This document shows, one piece after another, positions 3,013-39,344 of a stretch of DNA of 40,883 bases. The notes beneath the pieces are model-generated. The model saw only the letters and a list, made by a program, of their open reading frames with translations. It was not told where the DNA came from and ran no database searches. Both the position numbers and the translations under genes were made by a program. The stretch is from a virus. Taxonomy: Duplodnaviria; Heunggongvirae; Uroviricota; Caudoviricetes. Every line of letters starts with the position of its first letter. The stretch's first letter is position 1. The stretch is taken from the IMG/VR virus record IMGVR_UViG_2923334124_000004, one strand, 5' to 3'.

Positions 3013-3543
3013 TTACTGCACATCCTGCTCAAAAGGAATTATTGAAAAATCCTCAATGTCGCTTTTAATGGAAATACCGGGAATATTTTTCACGGCCTCT
3101 TTTTCATTCAGGATAGCGTCTTTATTTATTTCCTCTTTTACACGAATAAAGCGCTCAAGCCCCAGACGTCTCAGTAATTCAATAACATTATCCGCCCCAC
3201 GGATACTGACTGATGGCGGACGGTTTCGCCACTGCACCTCGCCGGTGGTGAGGTTAGCGAACTTCACCTTCCCGTTGCCGGTCAGTTCATCACGGTGTGC
3301 CTCACACCATGTCTGAATACCGGACTGCAGTTCGGCCATGCGTTTTTTCAGGCTCTCGGTGAGCGGGGCATAACGTGCGGTGATATCGCCAATGGCGTCA
3401 TTCATTTCTGTTTCAGCCCTGACCAGTTCACGTTGTGCGTCACCGAGTAGTCTGATTCCCTCAATGACCTCTTCACGTGTCCCCGGCACCCAGAGTGCTG
3501 CTGCGGCCTTGATACGTTTTGCACCTTTTGTACTTTTTGCCAT
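3013..3543 (-). CDS. gam: host-nuclease inhibitor Gam-like protein
   Basis: 176 aa; size, position downstream of the B-like gene, and sequence character fit Mu Gam. Confidence 0.7.
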   Translation of the reverse strand: MAKSTKGAKRIKAAAALWVPGTREEVIEGIRLLGDAQRELVRAETEMNDAIGDITARYAPLTESLKKRMAELQSGIQTWCEAHRDELTGNGKVKFANLTTGEVQWRNRPPSVSIRGADNVIELLRRLGLERFIRVKEEINKDAILNEKEAVKNIPGISIKSDIEDFSIIPFEQDVQ

Positions 3544-3842: not shown

Positions 3843-5009
3843 TTAAACCCCTTTGACAACGTCAGCGTTGACCTGTGGAACCCCGATTTCAGCGGCCAGA
3901 TTCATGGCGGCTATTACCAGGTTACTGACGGCCAGCGGATACAGCAGGCTGACCATATTTTTACGGTGACTTCCCGGATTGCTCAGGCGGGCACGTATGG
4001 CATCCACTGCACCGGCGTCCATAATGTCCGTCAGCTGTTTACCGGCCCGTTGCAGTTTGAACGTCAGAAATTCTTCAAGGTTATTGTCCAGAGGCAGAAG
4101 TTCGACCACCTCACAGCGCTGAACGACTTCACGGACTTCCATATTGCGTTCAGACAGTTTTGTCGCCAGTTCCGGCTGGCCAATCAGCACGATGGACAGC
4201 AGTTTTTTGAAACCGGACTCCAGCTCAAAAAAGCGTTTGAGGTGTTTCAGTGTCGGAATGGGCAGACTGTGGGCCTCCTCAATCACCAGAACGTGGCTGA
4301 ACCCCGCCTGGCTGCTGTCTTTCAGGACGCGATGCAACTGGCGAAAACGGGCGTCCTGACTGCGTCTGATGCTTTCCAGTGGTGCGATGGTACTGATAAT
4401 GGCTTCGGCAATAGCTGCTGCCTTCAGGGTTTTCCCTTTCACATCGTTGTCTTCCATAGCGATGATGTATGGCTCGATAACAATTACCGGCGCATTCTCG
4501 CGGTTGATACGTTCAGTCAGGTCGCGGCGCAGCGTGGATTTACCCGCACCGGACTCACCGATGACGGCCATAAACCCACCATGACGGGCTGTCTGGTACA
4601 GCGCCTCACGCACGTAGCGAATGTCCGGGGTGGTGAACACATCATCAGAACCCTGCATGGCTTCGTCGGCGAACGGGTCACGGAAAAGACCAAACGCTTT
4701 TTTGGTTGCTGGAAATAACACCTGTTTTTTGAGTAACATATTCTCTTCCTCACTGAGGCTCGTTTTATCTGTGGTACCCGCTGTACGGGGCGTGGCCGCG
4801 CCCTGTACAGCATCAAAACTCTTCGTTGTATCAATCCCCTGACTTTCCAGCCAGGACGCAAGACGCCGGCGCACTTCTCCGGGGCTGGTGCGGGGCCACG
4901 CGTTATGATTCACAATCTGGGCCAGCGTGGCCTCAGAAACATCGACAGCTCTCGCCACCACCGCCTGTGGAATACGGGCCTCTTTCAGTTGCTGCTTCAG
5001 TACCAGCAT
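3843..5009 (-). CDS. MuB-like transposition ATPase (AAA+)
   Basis: Walker A IGESGAGKST; immediately downstream of the transposase; start set to ATG 5007-5009 preceded by AGGAGG (the track ORF begins at an upstream GTG, 5048). Confidence 0.8.
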   Translation of the reverse strand: MLVLKQQLKEARIPQAVVARAVDVSEATLAQIVNHNAWPRTSPGEVRRRLASWLESQGIDTTKSFDAVQGAATPRTAGTTDKTSLSEEENMLLKKQVLFPATKKAFGLFRDPFADEAMQGSDDVFTTPDIRYVREALYQTARHGGFMAVIGESGAGKSTLRRDLTERINRENAPVIVIEPYIIAMEDNDVKGKTLKAAAIAEAIISTIAPLESIRRSQDARFRQLHRVLKDSSQAGFSHVLVIEEAHSLPIPTLKHLKRFFELESGFKKLLSIVLIGQPELATKLSERNMEVREVVQRCEVVELLPLDNNLEEFLTFKLQRAGKQLTDIMDAGAVDAIRARLSNPGSHRKNMVSLLYPLAVSNLVIAAMNLAAEIGVPQVNADVVKGV

Positions 5010-5019
5010 GTTTCCCTCC

Positions 5020-6789
5020 TCAGTTGCCGTTAACAATGCTGATAACACTGCTGCGGGCCGGTGTGGTCAGCGTGGCCATGACTTCATCCAGTGCGGCTTC
5101 CGGTACGCCGTCCGGGTACTGTGCCGTTAACTGGCGGTAATGTTCCGGCGTCCAGGTAAGGCCGTCGGCGCTGAACTTATCGCGCAGGGCTTTCGCGGCC
5201 TCCACATGAGTCATGGGACGTTGTTCAGTGCGCGGCCCGCGTACGTCAGAGGCCTGACCACGCTTCGGCATATAGGCCGGAAGTGTGGTGTCGTCGATAT
5301 GTTTATACGGGTCAAGCCGCCCGCCGAACGGCAGCGCCTTCGCCTTGCGTGCGGCGGCTGCATCTGCGGCGTTGTCTGTACCGGTAACCAGCGCTTCGGT
5401 TTCTTTTGCCGCCATCTGTGCCGGGGTTTCCGGCAGGGCTTTGTAACTTTCGCCAAATACCGCCGCGCCTTCAGCAAAGCCAAACTCGTTCTTTCTGACC
5501 TCTTCGACCAGGAAGAACGTCTCGTGGCCGTCCTCACCGGTCAGAACCACCTGTGCCACATCGCTGCGCCATGGGTTACGGGTAATCATCAGTTTTTCAC
5601 CAACCAGTACGCCCGGTACCGTTGATACGTCAAATTCAGTGCCCCGGAACGAGACACGAAGTTTTGGCGTGACTTTGCGGAGTTCTGGTGCCGCCACAGC
5701 CAGTTCACGACATACCTCAACGGAAGGCGCTTTTTTCAGCTGCTCAGCAGTAATCTTCAGCCAGATATCCGTGCGGGTTTTACCGTGGCGGCTGTGAACA
5801 GCCGTGGCGTTAAAGTGGCTGCGCCATTTCGCGGCCAGCGCGTTGAGTTCTTCCAGACTGTGAACCGGCCGGAACTTCAGACCCGGCTCCAGCTTGCGTT
5901 CGATAATGTCACGCGCCTTTTCCACCTGTCCGGTGGCGCGGGCGTTATGCGGCTTGTGCGCTATCAGGTCGATGCCCAGTGAGCGGCACATGTTTTTCGT
6001 CATACCCGCGGTGTTTGCCGAGCCGGGGTCGAGATAGAGTATTTTCGGCACGCCGTGCAGCACGTCTGCGCCGCCACGCTCCTGCATGGCGTTGATAAGC
6101 ACAGAACACAGGTTCTCACCTGATTCCGCGCCCGTCACATACTCAACGTAAATCCAGCCGCTGGCATGGTCGGTAATCTCGTAACTCCACACGCGGTCAC
6201 TGGCGATACGGGCAAGGTTAGCGGGCTTGTTCTTGTAGAACTTCGCGCTGTCCATCACCTGCAGCCCTTTATGTCCATTGCTCAGGTAGTAAAGCGTGCA
6301 GAGTGAGGCGTCAATCTGCCAGACATGATTGGGATGCAGACTGGCCACTTCGGTATGTGGTGCAGGGGCATCCAGTTGTTCCGGGTGCAGGCCATAGTTA
6401 CGCAGAGCACGGCTGATGGCATCTTCAGACAACGGGAAAAACTCACTGGTGGTTTCATCTGTTCTGCCTGCGGTGATAAAGCCGTTAGCCCGCAGGGTTT
6501 CCACTGCATCTGCGATGGAATAGAGACGCTTACCGTTCTTGCGGGTGGCCTCACGCAGTGTGGCAGATATCAGCGCGGCTTCGTCGCGGGTCAGGGCGCT
6601 GCGCCCGGCATCGGCGCGTTTTTTGCGTTTATCAGTCACAGATACCTCCTTCAGCCTGCGCAGCAGAGTGGCGCGGGACATGCCAAGTTCAGCACAGGCA
6701 GCGTCGTATATTGCACCGCGTTTACCATGCCCCGCGTCACGTGCCGCGCGGGCTGTTTCAACCAGTTTTTCAGTCAGTGCCGGGGTCAT
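5020..6789 (-). CDS. DDE transposase, MuA-like (integrase core domain)
   Basis: 589 aa; N-terminal HTH region, integrase-core motifs (HVWQIDAS...YLDPGS), followed by the B-like ATPase; the right terminus carries Mu-like CATTTATCG repeats. Confidence 0.8.
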   Translation of the reverse strand: MTPALTEKLVETARAARDAGHGKRGAIYDAACAELGMSRATLLRRLKEVSVTDKRKKRADAGRSALTRDEAALISATLREATRKNGKRLYSIADAVETLRANGFITAGRTDETTSEFFPLSEDAISRALRNYGLHPEQLDAPAPHTEVASLHPNHVWQIDASLCTLYYLSNGHKGLQVMDSAKFYKNKPANLARIASDRVWSYEITDHASGWIYVEYVTGAESGENLCSVLINAMQERGGADVLHGVPKILYLDPGSANTAGMTKNMCRSLGIDLIAHKPHNARATGQVEKARDIIERKLEPGLKFRPVHSLEELNALAAKWRSHFNATAVHSRHGKTRTDIWLKITAEQLKKAPSVEVCRELAVAAPELRKVTPKLRVSFRGTEFDVSTVPGVLVGEKLMITRNPWRSDVAQVVLTGEDGHETFFLVEEVRKNEFGFAEGAAVFGESYKALPETPAQMAAKETEALVTGTDNAADAAAARKAKALPFGGRLDPYKHIDDTTLPAYMPKRGQASDVRGPRTEQRPMTHVEAAKALRDKFSADGLTWTPEHYRQLTAQYPDGVPEAALDEVMATLTTPARSSVISIVNGN

Positions 6790-8367: not shown

Positions 8368-8413
8368 ACCTCTTTTGCGATATGTGATAACCTTTTACAA
8401 AGACTCAAAATAT

Positions 8414-8602
8414 TTAGGCCGCCTGAGCTGTTGATTTCAGTCCCAACTTCACGGCGATTTCATGGGATTTACCGTAACGGGCTTTGGTCTGCCCGTTGAG
8501 AACGCGGTATACCTCATTGCGGTTGTAGCCGTTTTCTTCTGCCCAGCGGGTGAAAGTGATCCCGCGCTGGCGGAAGAGAGCTTTGACTTGTTCTGCAGTC
8601 AT
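8414..8602 (-). CDS. Ner-like DNA-binding protein (Cro-like early regulator)
   Basis: 62 aa; first gene of the leftward operon, divergent from the repressor; strong SD (AAGGAGA) upstream of ATG 8600-8602; resembles Ner/Nlp-type HTH. Confidence 0.5.
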   Translation of the reverse strand: MTAEQVKALFRQRGITFTRWAEENGYNRNEVYRVLNGQTKARYGKSHEIAVKLGLKSTAQAA

Positions 8603-8654
8603 CGTTGTCTCCTTTGTTGATGCAATGATGTTTGCCTTATATGTGTTAGATTAT

Positions 8655-8672
8655 TGCTCATAATTATGAGCA
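8655..8672. promoter_or_regulatory. 18-bp perfect palindrome TGCTCATAATTATGAGCA, candidate operator
   Basis: Exact dyad symmetry in the 93-bp intergenic region between the divergent ner-like and repressor genes. Confidence 0.5.
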
Positions 8673-8695
8673 TATCAAGATAGAGATTCACTTTT

Positions 8696-9052
8696 ATGAG
8701 CAAAGATATAGGAGAGCGCGTTATTTCTGTGAGGAAGAAAGCAGGGTTGAACCAGAGAGAATTTGCAGCTCGTTTAGGTATTTCTAATGGTGGTATCAGT
8801 CAGATTGAAAATGGAAAGGCGATGCCTGGAGGGGAGTTTCTGTTAAAGATGCATCAAGAGTTTAATGTTGATGTAAATTGGTTGCTCACTGGAATGAGCA
8901 CAGATGGTATGACTAGAAACCAGAATCAAATTTCCCCAGAAAAACAAAAACTAATAGATACTTTTGACGACATGACACCAGACCAACAACGCTCATTTCT
9001 TGAGATTGGGCGATTCTATACTCAGCCAAAACCAGGAAAAATCGCAGGCTGA
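8696..9052 (+). CDS. XRE-family HTH repressor (prophage immunity repressor candidate)
   Basis: 118 aa; N-terminal NQREFAARLGISNGGISQIENGK is a classic XRE/Cro-CI HTH; divergent from the early operon; no S24 peptidase domain. Confidence 0.7.
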   Translation: MSKDIGERVISVRKKAGLNQREFAARLGISNGGISQIENGKAMPGGEFLLKMHQEFNVDVNWLLTGMSTDGMTRNQNQISPEKQKLIDTFDDMTPDQQRSFLEIGRFYTQPKPGKIAG

Positions 9053-9137
9053 TACTGACCCGGACACAAAGGACAGGTGGTTGATCTGGATGCTTTCAGA
9101 AAACATCGCCAGTGACATAGTGGAAGTTGTTTGGTTT

Positions 9138-9170
9138 ACCGGAAAGCATTGTGCTTTCCGGTTTTGTTTC
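9138..9170 (+). terminator. rho-independent terminator downstream of the repressor gene
   Basis: Stem ACCGGAAAGCA / TGCTTTCCGGT with 3-nt loop, followed by TTTGTTTC. Confidence 0.55.
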
Positions 9171-9933
9171 AGAAGTTGCAGATTAGCAGTTCACGGCGCG
9201 GCGTGGGTTTACCCGCCAGACTGTAGTTGATATTCACTGTCTGTATGTTCAGTCCAGTGAACACCTCGCGCATCTGCGGGATGTCGTTCACCGAAATTAT
9301 CATTTTTCCTCTGATGCACCGGGCCAGCTCTGCCAGCCGCGAGTAGTTCCCTTCAGGAAAATCCACACCATAGCCTTCCGTACCCAGGTACGGTGGGTCG
9401 CAGTAGAACAGCGTGTGCGGACGATCATAACGCTCAATGCACTGTTGCCAGTCCATGTGTTCTATGACTGTTCTGGAAAGCCGCAGGTGTGCCGCTGACA
9501 GTTCTTCTTCAATACGTAGCAGGTTGAAGCGTGGCGGGGATGTGGTGGAGGTACCGAAGCTGTGCTCTGCCACCTTGCCGCCAAACGCCTGCTTCTGAAG
9601 GTAGTAGAACCGTGCCGCACGCTGGATATCCGTCAGTGTTTCTTCCGGGGTGATCTGCAGCCATTTGTAGATCTGACGGCTGACCAGCGCCCATTTGAAC
9701 TGGCGGACAAATTCTTCCAGGTGATGCTTTACCACCCGGTACAGATTCACCAGTTCACCGTTGATATCATTGATGACTTCGATCTTGCCGGGTGTCTTAA
9801 GAAAATAGAGCGCTGCTGCCCCACAAAACGGCTCCACATAACATTCATGCGCCGGAAACAGCGGCAGAATGTGTTTTGCAAGGCGGCGTTTGCCACCAAT
9901 CCACGGCACGATGGGTAATGTCTGCATTTTCAT
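9169..9933 (-). CDS. Dam-family N6-adenine DNA methyltransferase
   Basis: N-terminal PWIGGKRRL...FCGAAAL (AdoMet-binding) and DPPY catalytic motif; start set to ATG 9931-9933 (the track ORF runs to 10023). Confidence 0.8.
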   Translation of the reverse strand: MKMQTLPIVPWIGGKRRLAKHILPLFPAHECYVEPFCGAAALYFLKTPGKIEVINDINGELVNLYRVVKHHLEEFVRQFKWALVSRQIYKWLQITPEETLTDIQRAARFYYLQKQAFGGKVAEHSFGTSTTSPPRFNLLRIEEELSAAHLRLSRTVIEHMDWQQCIERYDRPHTLFYCDPPYLGTEGYGVDFPEGNYSRLAELARCIRGKMIISVNDIPQMREVFTGLNIQTVNINYSLAGKPTPRRELLICNF

Positions 9934-10123
9934 AATCTGCAAGCCTTTTACAATTATTAAAAAATATGGCAGTCTGGTCAGGTCTCGCGAGACTGACTGA
10001 ACCTTGGTCGGCTCACAGCGCATTCCTGTGGGGCGATGACCAGCCCGGCTTTCGGGTGCCGGGCTGGTCGTTCTTTCATGATGCGGCAGGGATGGCGGGA
10101 TTTCTGTTAATGTGGTTTAGGGA

Positions 10124-10339
10124 TTATCCGGGGCGATTTTCTGACCTTATCCGGTCCAGGGCATAAGTAATACCTTCTGCAAAAACAGAAGTATCAAACT
10201 GCTTTTGTATTCCCTGAAAATGAAAAGCGGCACGACAGACACTCAGTTCTCCGCGGTATAACCGGATAATATCTTCCAGAACATTGTTCACTGCTTCAGC
10301 ACGGCGCTGATGTTCTGTTAACGTTAATCGGGGATTCAT
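10124..10339 (-). CDS. hypothetical protein
   Basis: 71 aa ORF; its start codon overlaps the start of the divergent ORF at 10338 (TCATGATG), so at least one of the two calls is uncertain. Confidence 0.25.
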   Translation of the reverse strand: MNPRLTLTEHQRRAEAVNNVLEDIIRLYRGELSVCRAAFHFQGIQKQFDTSVFAEGITYALDRIRSENRPG

Positions 10340-10742
10340 GATGCACTCCTTAAATGATGATTTTTATGTACTCACCGGCAAAATATTCTGCCGATTACTG
10401 AACACGCATCCGGCACCTCAGGTTTTGATTTATTCTGGTTTTTTCGATATCCCGGACCAGGTTGATCACGACCAGAAAAAGTGCCGGTGTTTTATTGATA
10501 CGCTGATATGGCTTCGGGATAACAGCTATATTCGTTACTCTCAGTTGCTGGCTGTGGGAGCGGCTGATGTCGTCCTCACGGAAAAAACGCTCTGTCTGCT
10601 CAATGCCATGCCGACCTTTCTGCAGCCCCGGCCCGTACCATTTAAAGAGTCACTTCTGGATGCAGTAAAAACCGGTGAAAATGCAGTCATCGCTGAATGC
10701 GTATCCCGGATTATGCGTTACGTGTTTAATGAACGTAAGTGA
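10338..10742 (+). CDS. hypothetical protein
   Basis: 134 aa ORF; its 3' end overlaps the 3' end of the convergent NTPase gene by 25 bp. Confidence 0.35.
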   Translation: MMHSLNDDFYVLTGKIFCRLLNTHPAPQVLIYSGFFDIPDQVDHDQKKCRCFIDTLIWLRDNSYIRYSQLLAVGAADVVLTEKTLCLLNAMPTFLQPRPVPFKESLLDAVKTGENAVIAECVSRIMRYVFNERK

Positions 10743-11446
10743 GGTTTATCCGCTGTCTGCATAATCCCGATAGCCAGTGCGAGGGGAAGTAATTCCGGGG
10801 AAACTCTTTCAAACAGCGATGCCCATTCTCCTCTCGCCATCACTCTGTCCAGCCCGCCCTCCAGTTGCATTTCAGCAATCTTCCTGATTTCCCGGAACAA
10901 CGCCGCTTTGATCTCTTCATGCTCAGCTTTATTTTCCGGTGTCAGAAGGTATTCGTCGAAGAACCGGGGAGGCTGGTTAATCGGGATGTGTTCCTGTTTG
11001 CCGTACTTCGGGGACGAACAACATTCTGTTGACTGACCAGTGAGTTTACGTAACTCCTTCATGAGCAGCTCCTGATCGTAAACTGTCATCAGTGCCGCAA
11101 TGGTGGCATGCAGTGCATCGGGCAGTATCCAGGGTTGCCGGCCCGTGGGGCATATAACATCCAGCAGCTCATTCGTCCGACAGATACGCTCCTCGCCGTA
11201 TGACAACAGGCCCTGTCCCGTGTATTCCTCCAGCCTGATCACTGTGCCAGCCCGTGGTTTCTGCCATGTGCTCAGATCATCCCCACTCATACGGCGCTCA
11301 CCGTCCACGTCTGCGGCGTCGACAATGACGCTGTTTCCGAATTCCTGTTTCACCACTTCCTCTATTCGCGCCAGTACGTAACTTTTACCGCTGCCCACAG
11401 GACCGGACACGGTGACAGTGATGACCGGATTCAGTGTCTGCGTCAT
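10718..11446 (-). CDS. P-loop NTPase / kinase-like protein (uncharacterised)
   Basis: 242 aa; Walker A GPVGSGKS near the N-terminus followed by hhhhD (VIVDAAD); no confident family assignment. Confidence 0.5.
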   Translation of the reverse strand: MTQTLNPVITVTVSGPVGSGKSYVLARIEEVVKQEFGNSVIVDAADVDGERRMSGDDLSTWQKPRAGTVIRLEEYTGQGLLSYGEERICRTNELLDVICPTGRQPWILPDALHATIAALMTVYDQELLMKELRKLTGQSTECCSSPKYGKQEHIPINQPPRFFDEYLLTPENKAEHEEIKAALFREIRKIAEMQLEGGLDRVMARGEWASLFERVSPELLPLALAIGIMQTADKPHLRSLNT

Positions 11447-11513
11447 ATCGTATTCTCCTCTGTGAATAATTCATCGTTTATCCTGCACATCCCGTATCCC
11501 CGGCTCTCTTAAC

Positions 11514-11527
11514 GCGCTTTAAAATCC
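11514..11527 (+). promoter_or_regulatory. candidate late-promoter element (GCGCTTTAAAATCC) upstream of the lysis cassette
   Basis: One of four intergenic copies of a CCTTTAwwAwC-like motif upstream of late operons. Confidence 0.3.
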
Positions 11528-11576
11528 TTCGCGCCCTGTATTTGTGATGCTGTCTCCACCAGATAAGGAGACACAC

Positions 11577-11927
11577 ATGAAAAACCTGAAAAAATTCATT
11601 CCCCCTGTTAAAAAACCTCGCCTCAGCGGCTGGCTGCTGACCTCAGTGCTGTTGCTGGGCACCATCGCTCTGGTCTCACCACAGCAGCTGCCTGTTGTGA
11701 TCTACAAGCTGGCACTCATCACGCTGGCAGCAGTGCTGGGTTACTGGCTTGACCGTTCGCTCTTCCCCAAAGCCCGTCCCGGTCAGTACCTGAAACATGA
11801 CGACAGGCTGATGGCTGAAGGGCGTTTCCCGGTACAGACCGGCCTTCACCTGGTGTTTTCTGCTGCGTTAATCCGCCGTGCACTGATTGTTGCAGCGGTC
11901 TGCCTGGCTGTTGCGATGGGGCTTTAA
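11577..11927 (+). CDS. holin-like membrane protein (putative)
   Basis: About three hydrophobic segments; directly upstream of the endolysin; start set to ATG 11577 preceded by AAGGAGA. Confidence 0.45.
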   Translation: MKNLKKFIPPVKKPRLSGWLLTSVLLLGTIALVSPQQLPVVIYKLALITLAAVLGYWLDRSLFPKARPGQYLKHDDRLMAEGRFPVQTGLHLVFSAALIRRALIVAAVCLAVAMGL

Positions 11928-13304: not shown

Positions 13305-13627
13305 CACTGCAGGTTGAATTCTGGACGGTGGTGAGTTTTCTGCTCACCTTCATGAGGTTTGTGGGAGGGCTCGCCAAATGGTTGTTCAGTAAAACAGAAG
13401 AACGCCAGGCGGCACGATTCGCCTCCCTTGAACAGGCCCTGCAACAATCCGCCTCCAACTGGGGCGAGCTGGAAAAAGAATTTATGCGATTTAAAGCGGA
13501 TTTACCGCTGAATTATGTCCGTCGAGAGGATTATATCCGTGGCCAGACAGTCATTGAGGCCAAACTGGACGCGCTTTATAACAAACTGGAAGTGGTACAG
13601 CAGTACCGCAATACCGGAGGTCAATAA
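13301..13627 (+). CDS. hypothetical membrane-anchored protein
   Basis: 108 aa; N-terminal hydrophobic segment then helical region. Confidence 0.4.
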   Translation: MTLQVEFWTVVSFLLTFMRFVGGLAKWLFSKTEERQAARFASLEQALQQSASNWGELEKEFMRFKADLPLNYVRREDYIRGQTVIEAKLDALYNKLEVVQQYRNTGGQ

Positions 13628-33778: not shown

Positions 33779-33790
33779 GCTTTTTAAACG

Positions 33791-33801
33791 CCTTTAATAT
33801 C
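33791..33801 (+). promoter_or_regulatory. candidate late-promoter element CCTTTAATATC
   Basis: Exact 11-mer shared with 27440-27450, in the gap upstream of the W-like gene; followed by the hairpin GGGGGC-AATACT-GCCCCC (33815-33832) abutting the ATG. Confidence 0.3.
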
Positions 33802-38771: not shown

Positions 38772-39344
38772 ATGCTGATTGGCTACATACGTGTGTCAAC
38801 AAATGACCAAAACACAGATTTGCAACGCAATGCATTAATGTGCGCAGGATGTGAACAGATTTTTGAGGACAAAATGAGCGGAACCAAGTCGGAACGACCA
38901 GGCCTGAAACGCGCTTTAAAGTGCCTTAAAAGAGGGGATACATTGGTGGTCTGGAAGCTGGATCGGTTGGGTAGAAGAATGAAACACCTCATTGCTCTCA
39001 CAGAAGAGCTACGCGCAAAAGGTGTCAATTTTCGCAGTCTGACGGATTCAATCGATACCAGCACTCCGATGGGAAGGTTCTTTTTTCATATGATGGGTGC
39101 ACTGGCAGAAATGGAGCGTGAACTGATAGTTGAGCGCACGCTGGCTGGACTGGCTGCTGCGCGAGCACAAGGAAGAGTTGGAGGACGTCGCCCGAAACTG
39201 ACGAAGGAGCAGCATGAGCAGATCGCAAGATTGCTCCAGAAAGGGTATGACAGAAAGCGGCTGGCAATTATCTATGATATTGGACTGTCAACGATCTACC
39301 GCTATCACCCTGTTGGGACTGTCATAACGCAACCTGAAATGTAA
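38772..39344 (+). CDS. serine DNA invertase (Gin/Pin/Hin/Cin family)
   Basis: MLIGYIRVSTNDQNTDLQRNAL...VVWKLDRLGR...MGALAEMERELI is the resolvase/invertase catalytic domain with the active-site serine; C-terminal HTH; ATG 38772 preceded by GGGAG. Confidence 0.85.
   Translation: MLIGYIRVSTNDQNTDLQRNALMCAGCEQIFEDKMSGTKSERPGLKRALKCLKRGDTLVVWKLDRLGRRMKHLIALTEELRAKGVNFRSLTDSIDTSTPMGRFFFHMMGALAEMERELIVERTLAGLAAARAQGRVGGRRPKLTKEQHEQIARLLQKGYDRKRLAIIYDIGLSTIYRYHPVGTVITQPEM

What the first reader, a model, noticed from the sequence alone, without database searches (positions are those of the whole stretch)
9169..11446. Uncharacterised accessory block between the immunity region and the lysis cassette
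Seen in sequence: between the repressor terminator and the first late gene lie a Dam-family methyltransferase (DPPY motif) with no adjacent restriction endonuclease, a 242-aa P-loop NTPase/kinase-like protein (GPVGSGKS) that I cannot assign to a family, and two small ORFs, one overlapping the NTPase 3' end on the opposite strand. Canonical Mu has nothing comparable at this position. Inference: a cargo or moron locus; candidates include an orphan methylase for anti-restriction or regulation, and an NTPase-based superinfection-exclusion, defence or counter-defence function. This is the part of the window where I would look first for a genuinely undescribed system, but the sequence alone does not establish one.
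Basis: partly seen in the sequence, partly recalled or inferred. Interest (0 to 1): 0.6.

Follow-up and report, generated by a model that had tools for sequence, protein, structure and literature searches.

The report
Mosaic prophage cargo slot with silent methylase
This stretch is the swap-prone cargo slot of a common E. coli Mu-type prophage: several independent small modules rather than one defence system, the "NTPase" being a fusion of small phage modules, and the one new find being a conserved folded RNA opposite the start of a silent phage DNA methylase gene.

Summary
The window is a BcepMu-type transposable prophage, identical here to phage PhiKM and to prophage Phi2 of E. coli ST131 strain EC958.

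The interval is the variable slot between the repressor and the activator-dependent lysis promoter. Its parts come and go independently among related prophages, so it is not one system.

- **Methylase:** the Dam-family enzyme is the orphan M.EcoMIV. It is published as barely transcribed in the lysogen and has no assigned target motif.
- **"242-aa NTPase":** this is a fusion of three modules that exist elsewhere as separate small phage proteins. Only a 75-residue N-terminal domain carries a Walker-A-like loop. No profile or fold search supports a full NTPase.
- **134-aa protein:** it is probably a winged helix. Together with the head-to-head 71-aa gene it forms a conserved pair. Relatives sit in the P2 gpA–gpQ defence hotspot, but none has been tested.
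- **New element:** a roughly 120-nt structured RNA lies on the strand opposite Dam, at 9961–10078. Covariation supports it, it is absent from Rfam, and it is found next to this Dam clade in most loci examined.

I infer that the RNA keeps Dam off until lytic growth. No known defence system matched.

The parts
8696..9052 (+). Immunity repressor (HTH_3/cI-like). This is the left border of the slot.
   Evidence: Pfam HTH_3 E=4.6e-15, Phage_CI_repr E=1.8e-5; RefSeq annotation.
9138..9162 (+). Intrinsic terminator of the repressor transcript.
   Evidence: 11-bp stem followed by TTTTGTTT.
9169..9933 (-). Orphan D12-class (Dam-family) N6-adenine DNA methyltransferase, M.EcoMIV of EC958 prophage Phi2. 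The ORF is open up to 10023, but the conserved start is 9933.
   Evidence: PF02086 E=8.7e-29 and TIGR00571 116 bits; PADLOC MTase_II E=9e-112; identical protein WP_000783854 in EC958 Phi2; published as low-transcribed with no motif assigned; dN/dS 0.07.
9961..10078 (+). Conserved structured RNA element, about 120 nt, encoded opposite to Dam immediately upstream of its start. It comprises HP3 (9968-9998) and a closing stem (9999-10002 with 10070-10073) that encloses HP2 (10007-10037) and the GC-rich HP1 (10038-10069), followed by a U-rich tail. The ends are inferred, not mapped.
   Evidence: Alignment of 29 distinct sequences: 31 pairs, 14 with compensatory changes. 95.8% of cells paired against 85.3% in shuffles; 86 double-change cells against 17.9; 0/500 shuffles reach the observed values; slid controls 31-51%. 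G-U asymmetry favours the + strand, 92.5% against 77.9% canonical. MFE -57.5 kcal/mol, z=-4.4. The covariance model finds it once in the window, next to Dam in 41 loci (42 of the 43 matches), always on the strand opposite Dam. No Rfam match.
9927..9954 (+). Putative promoter of the structured RNA (TTTTCA-16-TACAAT). It overlaps the Dam start codon and the -10 of the putative Dam promoter.
   Evidence: Consensus scan. Equivalent CTTTCA-16-TTCAWT is seen in Citrobacter, Serratia and bovine E. coli. Conservation is confounded by the Dam translation signals, so this is inference only.
9953..9981 (-). Putative proximal Dam promoter (CTGACC-17-AATAAT). Its -35 lies in the 3' half of HP3.
   Evidence: Consensus scan; not verified.
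10124..10339 (-). 71-aa protein of unknown function (phrog_4490), head-to-head with the 134-aa gene with overlapping start codons.
   Evidence: PHROG E=7e-53; 29%-identical homologue in the same position in Serratia prophages; weak HTH_psq hint E=0.083.
10338..10742 (+). 134-aa protein (phrog_2266), probably a winged helix with extra C-terminal helices.
   Evidence: AF2 pLDDT 77, pTM 0.74; Foldseek top hits are winged-helix domains, but only at E of 0.13 or worse; 53% homologue in Serratia BcepMu-like prophages and about 31% homologues in the gpA-gpQ hotspot of P2-like phages.
11219..11446 (-). Residues 1-76 of the 242-aa protein: an autonomous mini-domain with a Walker-A-like loop (invariant G15, G20, K21, W61, P64).
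   Evidence: Exhaustive HMMER search: relatives share essentially only residues 1-76, the sole full-length matches being close E. coli alleles (P0006, P0015). Relatives are fused to unrelated C-termini or stand alone at 73-90 aa.
11030..11194 (-). Residues 85-139 of the 242-aa protein: middle helical module.
   Evidence: Matches the C-termini of Salmonella proteins P0037 and P0039 (E about 1e-8); stands alone as the 108-aa P0074.
10718..10918 (-). Residues 177-242 (plus stop) of the 242-aa protein: C-terminal module. Its 3' end overlaps the 134-aa gene convergently.
   Evidence: Homologous to a free-standing 89-aa Serratia protein that occupies the same convergent-overlap position beside the 139-aa and 73-aa genes.
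11509..11524 (.). Dyad TTAACGCGCTTTAAAA upstream of the holin. It is a candidate binding site of the Mor/C-type late activator (lysis promoter) and forms the right border of the slot.
   Evidence: Conserved in E. coli, Citrobacter and Serratia; BcepMu has a partial match, CTAAAGCCGATTAAAAG. 9 matches in the window against 0.57 expected, including sites at 33782-33799 and 38906-38931.
11577..11927 (+). Holin, the first late (lysis) gene.
   Evidence: Pfam Holin_2-3 E=1.5e-41; RefSeq start.

Best explanation
The interval is the hypervariable accessory slot of a BcepMu-family transposable prophage (EC958 Phi2 / phage PhiKM type). It lies between the immunity repressor and the activator-dependent late lysis promoter. 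It holds at least three cassettes that assort independently, not one system.

1. Dam cassette. This is the orphan D12-class adenine methyltransferase M.EcoMIV plus a conserved structured RNA of about 120 nt, encoded on the opposite strand immediately upstream of the Dam start.
   - Shown: the RNA structure is under selection, the + strand is the folded strand, and the motif travels with this Dam clade.
   - Inferred: the RNA is made from a promoter whose -10 overlaps that of Dam and ends at its own hairpin and U-tract. It holds Dam off in the lysogen by promoter occlusion and by pairing with any read-through Dam leader. Dam is made only during lytic growth, when it methylates progeny DNA. The purpose would be protection from restriction in the next host, or phage-internal regulation.

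2. A conserved trio. It consists of a probable winged-helix 134-aa protein, a head-to-head 71-aa protein, and a convergently overlapping helical module that is free-standing in Serratia. I infer a small self-regulating accessory unit of unknown output. Its relatives sit in the P2 defence hotspot.

3. A 75-residue phage mini-domain with a Walker-A-like loop. Here it is fused by module shuffling to two helical modules, giving the '242-aa NTPase'. I infer a phosphate- or nucleotide-binding small early or accessory protein, not an ATPase motor or kinase.
For: Identity and context:
- 100% identity to PhiKM (genus Bcepmuvirus) and to many E. coli chromosomes; 632 of 5426 genomes match.
- EC958 carries identical proteins, and the published Phi2 invertible tail-fibre segment abuts the locus.
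- BcepMu has unrelated gp18-20 in the same slot.

Independent assortment:
- Serratia has Dam + 73 aa + 139 aa + an 89-aa C-module, with no P-loop domain.
- Citrobacter/Salmonella has a P-loop-domain protein + Dam with different small genes.
- E. coli variants have Dam alone next to the holin, or a P-loop-domain gene alone without Dam.
- E. coli place counts: lysis cassette 704, N-domain 619, 71/134 pair 528.

Dam silent in the lysogen: Forde 2015 RT-PCR and methylome, PMC4659465.

RNA: covariation, strand asymmetry, thermodynamics and the distribution of covariance-model hits; absent from Rfam.

Mosaic 242-aa protein.

Winged helix.

No known defence family for the three unknown proteins.
Against: - No transcript data were available here. 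The RNA's promoter, ends and even its independent transcription are inferred. The promoter-like hexamers overlap sequence that is also constrained by Dam's start codon and ribosome-binding site.
- Low Dam transcription was measured only in LB mid-log culture.
- Assigning EC958_1101 to this gene rests on position and on the Phi2 coordinates, not on a direct locus-tag mapping.
- Dam's target sequence and its role in lytic growth are untested.
- The winged-helix assignment is weak (Foldseek E of 0.13 or worse).
- The AF2 model of the 242-aa protein is poor outside residues 11-70 and shows no beta strands, so the absence of fold matches is weak negative evidence.
- Independent assortment does not exclude functional cooperation when the cassettes are together.
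Confidence: 0.55

Rival explanations
1. The 242-aa P-loop protein, with the two small ORFs and perhaps Dam, forms an undescribed NTPase-based defence, superinfection-exclusion or counter-defence system expressed from the prophage.
For: The slot is variable, like the known prophage defence hotspots. Relatives of the 134-aa protein lie in the P2 gpA-gpQ hotspot defined by Rousset 2022. All three proteins are uncharacterised.
Against: The components assort independently. The protein is a module fusion with only a 75-residue Walker-A domain, and nothing supports an NTPase fold. No PADLOC match. No sigma-70-like promoter was found for the leftward genes upstream of 11446. Dam is poorly transcribed in lysogens. 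The P2 pair was not found among the systems tested by Rousset et al..
Confidence: 0.12
2. The structured element is a sense-strand 5' leader of the Dam mRNA. It would be a translational control device like the com-mom stem-loop of Mu, or a binding site for the 71-aa protein, rather than an antisense RNA.
For: An invariant AGCCU lies about 30 nt upstream of, and can pair with, the Dam Shine-Dalgarno AAGGCU (helix 1). In the window the 71-aa gene lies directly upstream, in a com-mom-like order. The Dam-sense strand also folds well (z=-4.0).
Against: Strand asymmetry: 187 G-U cells on the + strand become A-C mismatches on the Dam-sense strand, 92.5% against 77.9% canonical. HP1 is followed by a U-tract only in the + orientation. 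The element persists where no 71-aa gene is upstream. Helix 1 never varies, so it offers no covariation support.
Confidence: 0.15
3. The element is only a transcription insulator. It would be a terminator module that stops rightward (+) read-through or antisense transcription across Dam, with no regulatory RNA product of its own.
For: HP1 plus the U-tract is a canonical terminator in the + orientation and is the most strongly covarying helix, with 9 of 11 pairs showing double changes.
Against: HP2, the enclosing 4-bp stem (3 of 4 pairs with double changes) and a palindromic HP3 are conserved as well. That is more than a terminator needs. No + strand gene ends here. The motif keeps a fixed position and orientation relative to the Dam start in most loci.
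Confidence: 0.15
4. The 134-aa and 71-aa pair is a toxin-antitoxin or bistable regulatory switch. It would stabilise the prophage or control neighbouring cargo, independently of Dam and the P-loop domain.
For: The head-to-head geometry with overlapping start codons is conserved in BcepMu-like and P2-like phages. The fold is winged-helix-like, and there is a weak HTH hint in the 71-aa protein.
Against: The small partners in the two phage groups show no detectable homology. No toxin-like domain is present. No promoters were detected. No experimental data exist.
Confidence: 0.2

Closest known systems
Variable slot between repressor (gp17) and holin (gp21) of Burkholderia phage BcepMu (gp18-gp20)
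   Same: Same genome architecture: the early arm points away from the late arm, and the slot is bounded by the cI-like repressor and by the holin/SLT lysis cassette. Related conserved late-promoter sequence.
   Different: The BcepMu genes are unrelated, lie on the repressor strand and include a membrane protein. BcepMu has no Dam, no P-loop mini-domain and no copy of the RNA motif.
Phage Mu com-mom (late DNA-modification operon under RNA-structure control)
   Same: Both are transposable phages with a DNA adenine-modifying function that is kept silent in the lysogen, and with a structured RNA at the 5' side of the modification gene. The Mu side of this comparison is from my own knowledge of the Mu literature.
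   Different: Mom is not a D12 methyltransferase and lies at the right genome end. Its control uses C, Dam/OxyR and the Com zinc-finger protein acting on the sense mRNA. Here the folded strand is the antisense one, and no Com homologue was found.
Cis-encoded antisense RNAs of temperate phages and R-M systems (lambda OOP, P22 sar, P1/P7 c4; EcoRI Rna0/Rna1)
   Same: A small structured transcript with its own terminator, encoded opposite or adjacent to the 5' region of the gene it would control. The comparator details are from my own knowledge.
   Different: No sequence or Rfam relationship. The association with an orphan Dam-family methyltransferase, and the Y-shaped closing stem enclosing two hairpins, are to my knowledge undescribed. 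Transcription has not been shown.
P2-like phage gpA-gpQ (old/tin) hotspot of antiviral systems (Rousset et al. 2022, PMC9122126)
   Same: A short locus of high turnover between conserved phage genes. Homologues of the 134-aa protein, each with a divergent start-overlapping small ORF, lie in exactly that hotspot in Salmonella, Klebsiella and E. coli P2-like phages.
   Different: A different phage family and different anchor genes. The pair was not found among the systems they tested. The small partner is not homologous. No defence phenotype is known.
P-loop NTPases (ABC, AAA, nucleotide-kinase families)
   Same: A strand, then GxxxxGK[ST], then a helix at the N-terminus.
   Different: The conserved unit is only about 75 residues and exists as free 73-90-aa proteins. 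There is no conserved Walker B, some members have GKN, and no family threshold or fold match is reached.

Membership tests
D12-class (Dam-family) N6-adenine DNA methyltransferase | Profile match above the curated threshold. | tested here: met
   PF02086 101.4 bits (cut-off 22); TIGR00571 116 bits (cut-off 114.85).
D12-class (Dam-family) N6-adenine DNA methyltransferase | Catalytic DPPY motif and N-terminal SAM-binding motif. | tested here: met
   FYCDPPYLG and VEPFCGAAALYF are present in the translation and aligned to DpnM and EcoDam.
D12-class (Dam-family) N6-adenine DNA methyltransferase | GATC specificity. | tested here: inconclusive
   The EcoDam equivalog model scores 66 bits against a cut-off of 441. 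In the HMMER alignment, EcoDam K9, L122, R124 and P134 align to P, K, A and S (their role as GATC-contact residues is recalled from the EcoDam structure paper). No motif is assigned in the EC958 methylome. This needs expression in a dam- host followed by SMRT or nanopore sequencing.
Type II restriction-modification system | A cognate restriction endonuclease next to the methyltransferase. | tested here: not met
   The neighbours are the repressor and the 71-aa, 134-aa and 242-aa proteins, none with a nuclease-like Pfam, NCBIfam or PADLOC hit. Published as an orphan.
P-loop NTPase | Walker A motif GxxxxGK[ST]. | tested here: met
   GPVGSGKS. G15, G20 and K21 are invariant in 14 diverse relatives, though some have GKN.
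P-loop NTPase | Walker B (hhhhD/E) and a complete alpha/beta core of about 150 residues or more. | tested here: not met
   The conserved unit ends at about residue 76 and exists as free 73-90-aa proteins. D43 is not conserved, and the downstream sequence is unrelated between relatives.
P-loop NTPase | A family profile or fold match at significance. | tested here: not met
Known anti-phage defence systems (PADLOC-DB 2.0) | A match of any component to a defence-system model. | tested here: not met
   No hit for the 71-aa and 134-aa proteins. Only Walker-A-level hits for the 242-aa protein (E of 0.003 or worse). Dam hits generic MTase models.
Winged-helix DNA-binding proteins (134-aa protein) | A helix-turn-helix plus beta-hairpin wing fold. 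| tested here: inconclusive
   The AF2 model (pTM 0.74) has the topology H-E-H-E-H plus two C-terminal helices. Foldseek top hits are winged-helix domains (SSV1 F-93, CodY-C, ScpB, YjcQ) with probability up to 0.8 but E of 0.13 or worse. Pfam gives nothing.
Rfam RNA families | A covariance-model match. | tested here: not met
   No match at E of 1 or better over 8400-11800, both strands.
Cis-antisense regulatory small RNA | A conserved secondary structure with covariation on the antisense strand. | tested here: met
Cis-antisense regulatory small RNA | An independent transcript with its own promoter and terminator, and a regulatory effect on the target. | not testable with these tools
   There are only consensus-level promoter hexamers and a hairpin with U-tract. 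This needs RNA-seq, Northern blot and mutagenesis.

The most novel reading that the evidence does not exclude
The Dam gene and the antisense structured RNA form a self-contained mobile 'silent methylase' cassette found across many temperate phages. In this reading the RNA is a dedicated switch that licenses a burst of DNA methylation only during lytic replication. It would be a new class of RNA-controlled epigenetic anti-restriction module. Separately, the winged-helix/small-ORF pair shared by BcepMu-like slots and the P2 defence hotspot could be an untested anti-phage or anti-defence unit.
Probability: 0.2. Interest if true: 0.7.

Novelty: new member of a known kind. Interest (0 to 1): 0.42.

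Why it matters
- **Prevalence.** The prophage is present in about 12% of complete E. coli genomes in the collection searched, including the pandemic ST131 lineage.
- **The silent methylase.** Its methyltransferase, M.EcoMIV, has been a puzzle in the ST131 methylome: the gene is present and conserved, yet it is silent and has no motif. A conserved RNA element placed exactly at its start gives a concrete, testable explanation for that silence. It also adds an RNA family that Rfam lacks.
- **A correction for annotation.** The 'ABC transporter ATPase / NTPase' label attached to these genes in databases is unfounded. The N-terminal domain is a small, widespread phage domain absent from Pfam, and it is shuffled among helical modules.
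- **A negative result for defence hunting.** The block should not be treated as one candidate system. The 71/134 pair and the repressor-strand cargo found in sister prophages are better targets.

Tried and rejected
- **PADLOC, NCBIfam and Pfam** on the three unknown proteins gave nothing beyond Walker-A noise.
- **PDB sequence searches** gave only non-significant guanylate-kinase or designed P-loop hits for the 242-aa protein, and nothing for the 134-aa protein.
- **The genome-contig scan** with the N-domain was swamped by the generic VSGPxGSGK pattern.
- **Homology between the 71-aa protein and the 63-aa P2-type partner:** none by BLASTP or hhalign.
- **M.EcoGII lead for the methylase:** rejected. 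That enzyme is a beta-class MTase, whereas this one is D12 class and corresponds to M.EcoMIV.
- **Literature:** searches by RefSeq protein accessions and for DUF2513 found nothing useful.
- **Rousset 2022 supplements:** a search for peptide fragments of the P2-type pair found nothing.
- **Sigma-70 scan:** no convincing promoter for the 242-aa, 71-aa or 134-aa genes. I looked by eye for a mirror-image activator-dependent promoter for the 242-aa gene, using the lysis-promoter dyad. The spacing is conserved at about 60 nt, but no convincing -10 is present, so expression timing of these genes is unresolved.
- **Spurious representative-search hits:** P0042 and P0077 are long repeat proteins and were discarded.
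- **GATC depletion** (observed/expected 0.56) is not diagnostic of Dam specificity.
Full report
**What the window is.** Region 8600-11600 is 100% identical to Escherichia phage PhiKM (genus Bcepmuvirus) and to many E. coli chromosomes; 632 of 5426 complete genomes have a match. RefSeq and GenBank annotations around it show a BcepMu-type transposable phage:
- On the minus strand, running leftward: a Ner-like protein, an IclR-like HTH protein, a DUF3102 protein, a DDE transposase and an ExeA-like protein.
- On the plus strand: a cI-like repressor at 8696-9052.
- From 11577 rightward: the late genes (holin, SLT lysin, spanin-like proteins, terminase, Mu-type portal).

BcepMu itself has this inverted-arm layout, with unrelated genes gp18-gp20 between repressor gp17 and holin gp21. 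So 'canonical Mu' is the wrong reference. The interval is the family's repressor-to-holin slot.

EC958 (ST131) carries the same prophage with identical proteins at 1.005-1.042 Mb. The published coordinates of the Phi2 invertible tail-fibre segment, 1005540-1007607, abut it. The prophage is therefore EC958 Phi2.

**Observation check.** All ORFs are as described.
- Dam matches PF02086 (E=8.7e-29), passes NCBIfam 'dam' narrowly and has the DPPY motif.
- The conserved start is 9933 (254 aa), not 10023.
- The 134-aa gene overlaps the 242-aa gene's 3' end by 25 nt. It shares a CATG with the start of the 71-aa gene.
- All four proteins match PHROG families end to end, three of them of unknown function.
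- No nuclease is adjacent.

**The block is not one unit.**
- In Serratia BcepMu-like prophages the order is repressor, Dam, 73 aa, 139 aa, 89 aa, holin. The 73-aa and 139-aa proteins are homologues of the window's 71-aa and 134-aa proteins. The 89-aa protein matches only residues 177-228 of the 242-aa protein and has no P-loop domain.
- In Citrobacter and Salmonella the order is holin, a 291-aa protein with the P-loop N-domain, different small genes, then Dam, YecR and the repressor.
- E. coli variants differ again. One has Dam directly beside the holin. Another has a 158-aa P-loop-domain gene alone with no Dam. Both carry different cargo on the repressor strand. A third has an extra 126-aa gene.
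- Place counts across E. coli: lysis cassette 704, N-domain 619, 71/134 pair 528.

**The '242-aa NTPase'.**
- The word-index search found only E. coli relatives.
- The exhaustive HMMER search found 60 proteins. Outside close E. coli alleles, they share only residues 1-76. Those residues are followed by unrelated, mutually mosaic C-termini of 177-364 aa, or stand alone at 73-90 aa.
- Residues 85-139 match the C-termini of two Salmonella proteins and a free 108-aa protein. Residues 177-228 match the free Serratia 89-aa protein. The protein is therefore a fusion of three modules.
- Invariant residues in the N-domain are G15, G20, K21, W61 and P64. Some members have GKN, and no Walker B is conserved.
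- Pfam hits are sub-threshold Walker-A matches. A PDB profile search aligns only the strand-loop-helix segment.
- Distant members lie among small ORFs in phage contigs, including a 141-kb one.
- I conclude it is a small phage domain with a phosphate-binding-type loop, absent from Pfam, and not a demonstrated NTPase.

**The 134-aa/71-aa pair.**
- The 134-aa family is restricted to Enterobacterales, with 85 clusters.
- About 31%-identical members lie in P2-like phages between portal gpQ and replication gene gpA. Each has a divergent 63-64-aa ORF whose start overlaps in the same way. That locus is the old/tin hotspot of antiviral systems.
- The small partners in the two phage groups are not detectably homologous. 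The pair was not found among the systems tested by Rousset et al..
- AF2 (pTM 0.74) and Foldseek suggest a winged helix, but weakly. The function remains unknown.

**Dam.**
- The protein equals the D12-class orphan on EC958 Phi2, M.EcoMIV. It is reported as transcribed significantly below host dam in LB mid-log culture, and no methylation motif could be assigned to it.
- The residues that read GATC in EcoDam do not align to conserved residues here. Specificity is open.

**New element.**
- Aligning the roughly 170 nt upstream of Dam from E. coli, Citrobacter and Serratia showed three hairpins with compensatory changes.
- Dam homologues fetched from IMG/VR (80 loci, 65-100% identity) gave 29 distinct sequences carrying the element.
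- RNAalifold on the strand opposite Dam predicts 31 pairs, 14 of them with double changes.
- The pair count shows 95.8% of cells paired against 85.3% in shuffles, and 86 double-change cells against 17.9. None of 500 shuffles reached the observed values. Slid controls gave 31-51%.
- The extended structure is 92.5% canonical on the plus strand, with 187 G-U cells. On the Dam-sense strand it is 77.9%, because those same cells become A-C.
- The window RNA 9961-10080 folds at -57.5 kcal/mol, z=-4.4. Its architecture is HP3, then a 4-bp closing stem enclosing HP2 and a 12-bp GC-rich HP1, then a U-rich tail.
- A covariance model finds one copy in the window. Another 42 matches fall in 41 other loci, next to Dam, and all are on the strand opposite Dam. 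There were none in BcepMu, in the Dam-less E. coli variant, in P2-like loci or in the large-phage contigs.
- Rfam has no match.
- A promoter-like TTTTCA-16-TACAAT (9927-9954, +) overlaps the Dam start codon and the -10 of a Dam-sense promoter-like site.

**Mechanism (inferred).**
- The RNA is transcribed away from Dam and terminates at its own hairpin.
- By occupying overlapping promoter elements, and by full complementarity to any read-through Dam leader, it keeps Dam off in the lysogen.
- An invariant anti-SD/SD pairing in the sense leader may add to this, but it has no covariation support.
- Dam would then act during lytic growth on progeny DNA.
- The leftward 242-aa and 71-aa genes have no recognisable sigma-70 promoter. 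They sit about 60 nt from the conserved dyad of the lysis promoter. Their timing is unresolved.

**Verdict.**
- This is a real, variable cargo slot, and the methylase is an orphan.
- The 'NTPase system' idea is not supported.
- Most of the content consists of recurrent phage genes of unknown function.
- The Dam-associated structured RNA and the mini P-loop domain are undescribed families of known general kinds.
- Interest is moderate.

Noticed in passing
window 11509-11524, 33782-33799, 38906-38931 (weaker: 13566-13581, 3843-3858): The dyad TTAA(A/C)GC(G/C)CTTTAAAA occurs 9 times at up to 3 mismatches, against 0.57 expected. The copy upstream of the holin is conserved in E. coli, Citrobacter and Serratia; BcepMu has a partial match. 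These are probably Mor/C-type late-activator sites marking the late promoters.
   Followed up: partly
L022 237-2452 (E. coli RIVM_C036569) and L023 1335-3451 (E. coli Eco889): Sister prophages carry different cargo on the repressor strand in the same slot: a nucleoid-associated protein plus a 401-aa protein, or a 328-aa plus a 193-aa protein. Being co-oriented with the repressor, these are better candidates for lysogen-expressed defence genes than the window's genes.
   Followed up: no
L025 5494-6239 (Salmonella P2-like prophage, gpA-gpQ hotspot): Next to the 63/145-aa pair lies a conserved two-gene unit: a 128-aa protein followed by a 120-aa protein with a hydrophobic stretch suggesting a membrane segment (not tested). 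It has no Pfam hits and recurs in all five places shown.
   Followed up: no
L012 and L013 (metagenomic phage contigs, 141 kb and 48 kb): Divergent members of the P-loop mini-domain family sit beside arrays of DUF7941 paralogues in large phage genomes.
   Followed up: no
whole window: GATC is depleted (112 observed against 201 expected, 0.56) and CTAG almost absent (1 against 10.8). The GATC figure agrees with the published under-representation of GATC in EC958 prophages.
   Followed up: partly
L001 (PhiKM, PQ738613) 3097-3453 and 4739-5143: The GenBank record of phage PhiKM does not annotate the repressor or the 134-aa gene, annotates a spurious 41-aa ORF instead, and uses the long 284-aa Dam start. 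RefSeq E. coli records annotate all four genes.
   Followed up: yes
L078, L098, L109, L113, L065, L070 (IMG/VR Dam loci): In several distant Dam loci the RNA motif lies about 130-180 nt further upstream of Dam than usual, implying an insertion or a small ORF between the motif and the Dam start.
   Followed up: no
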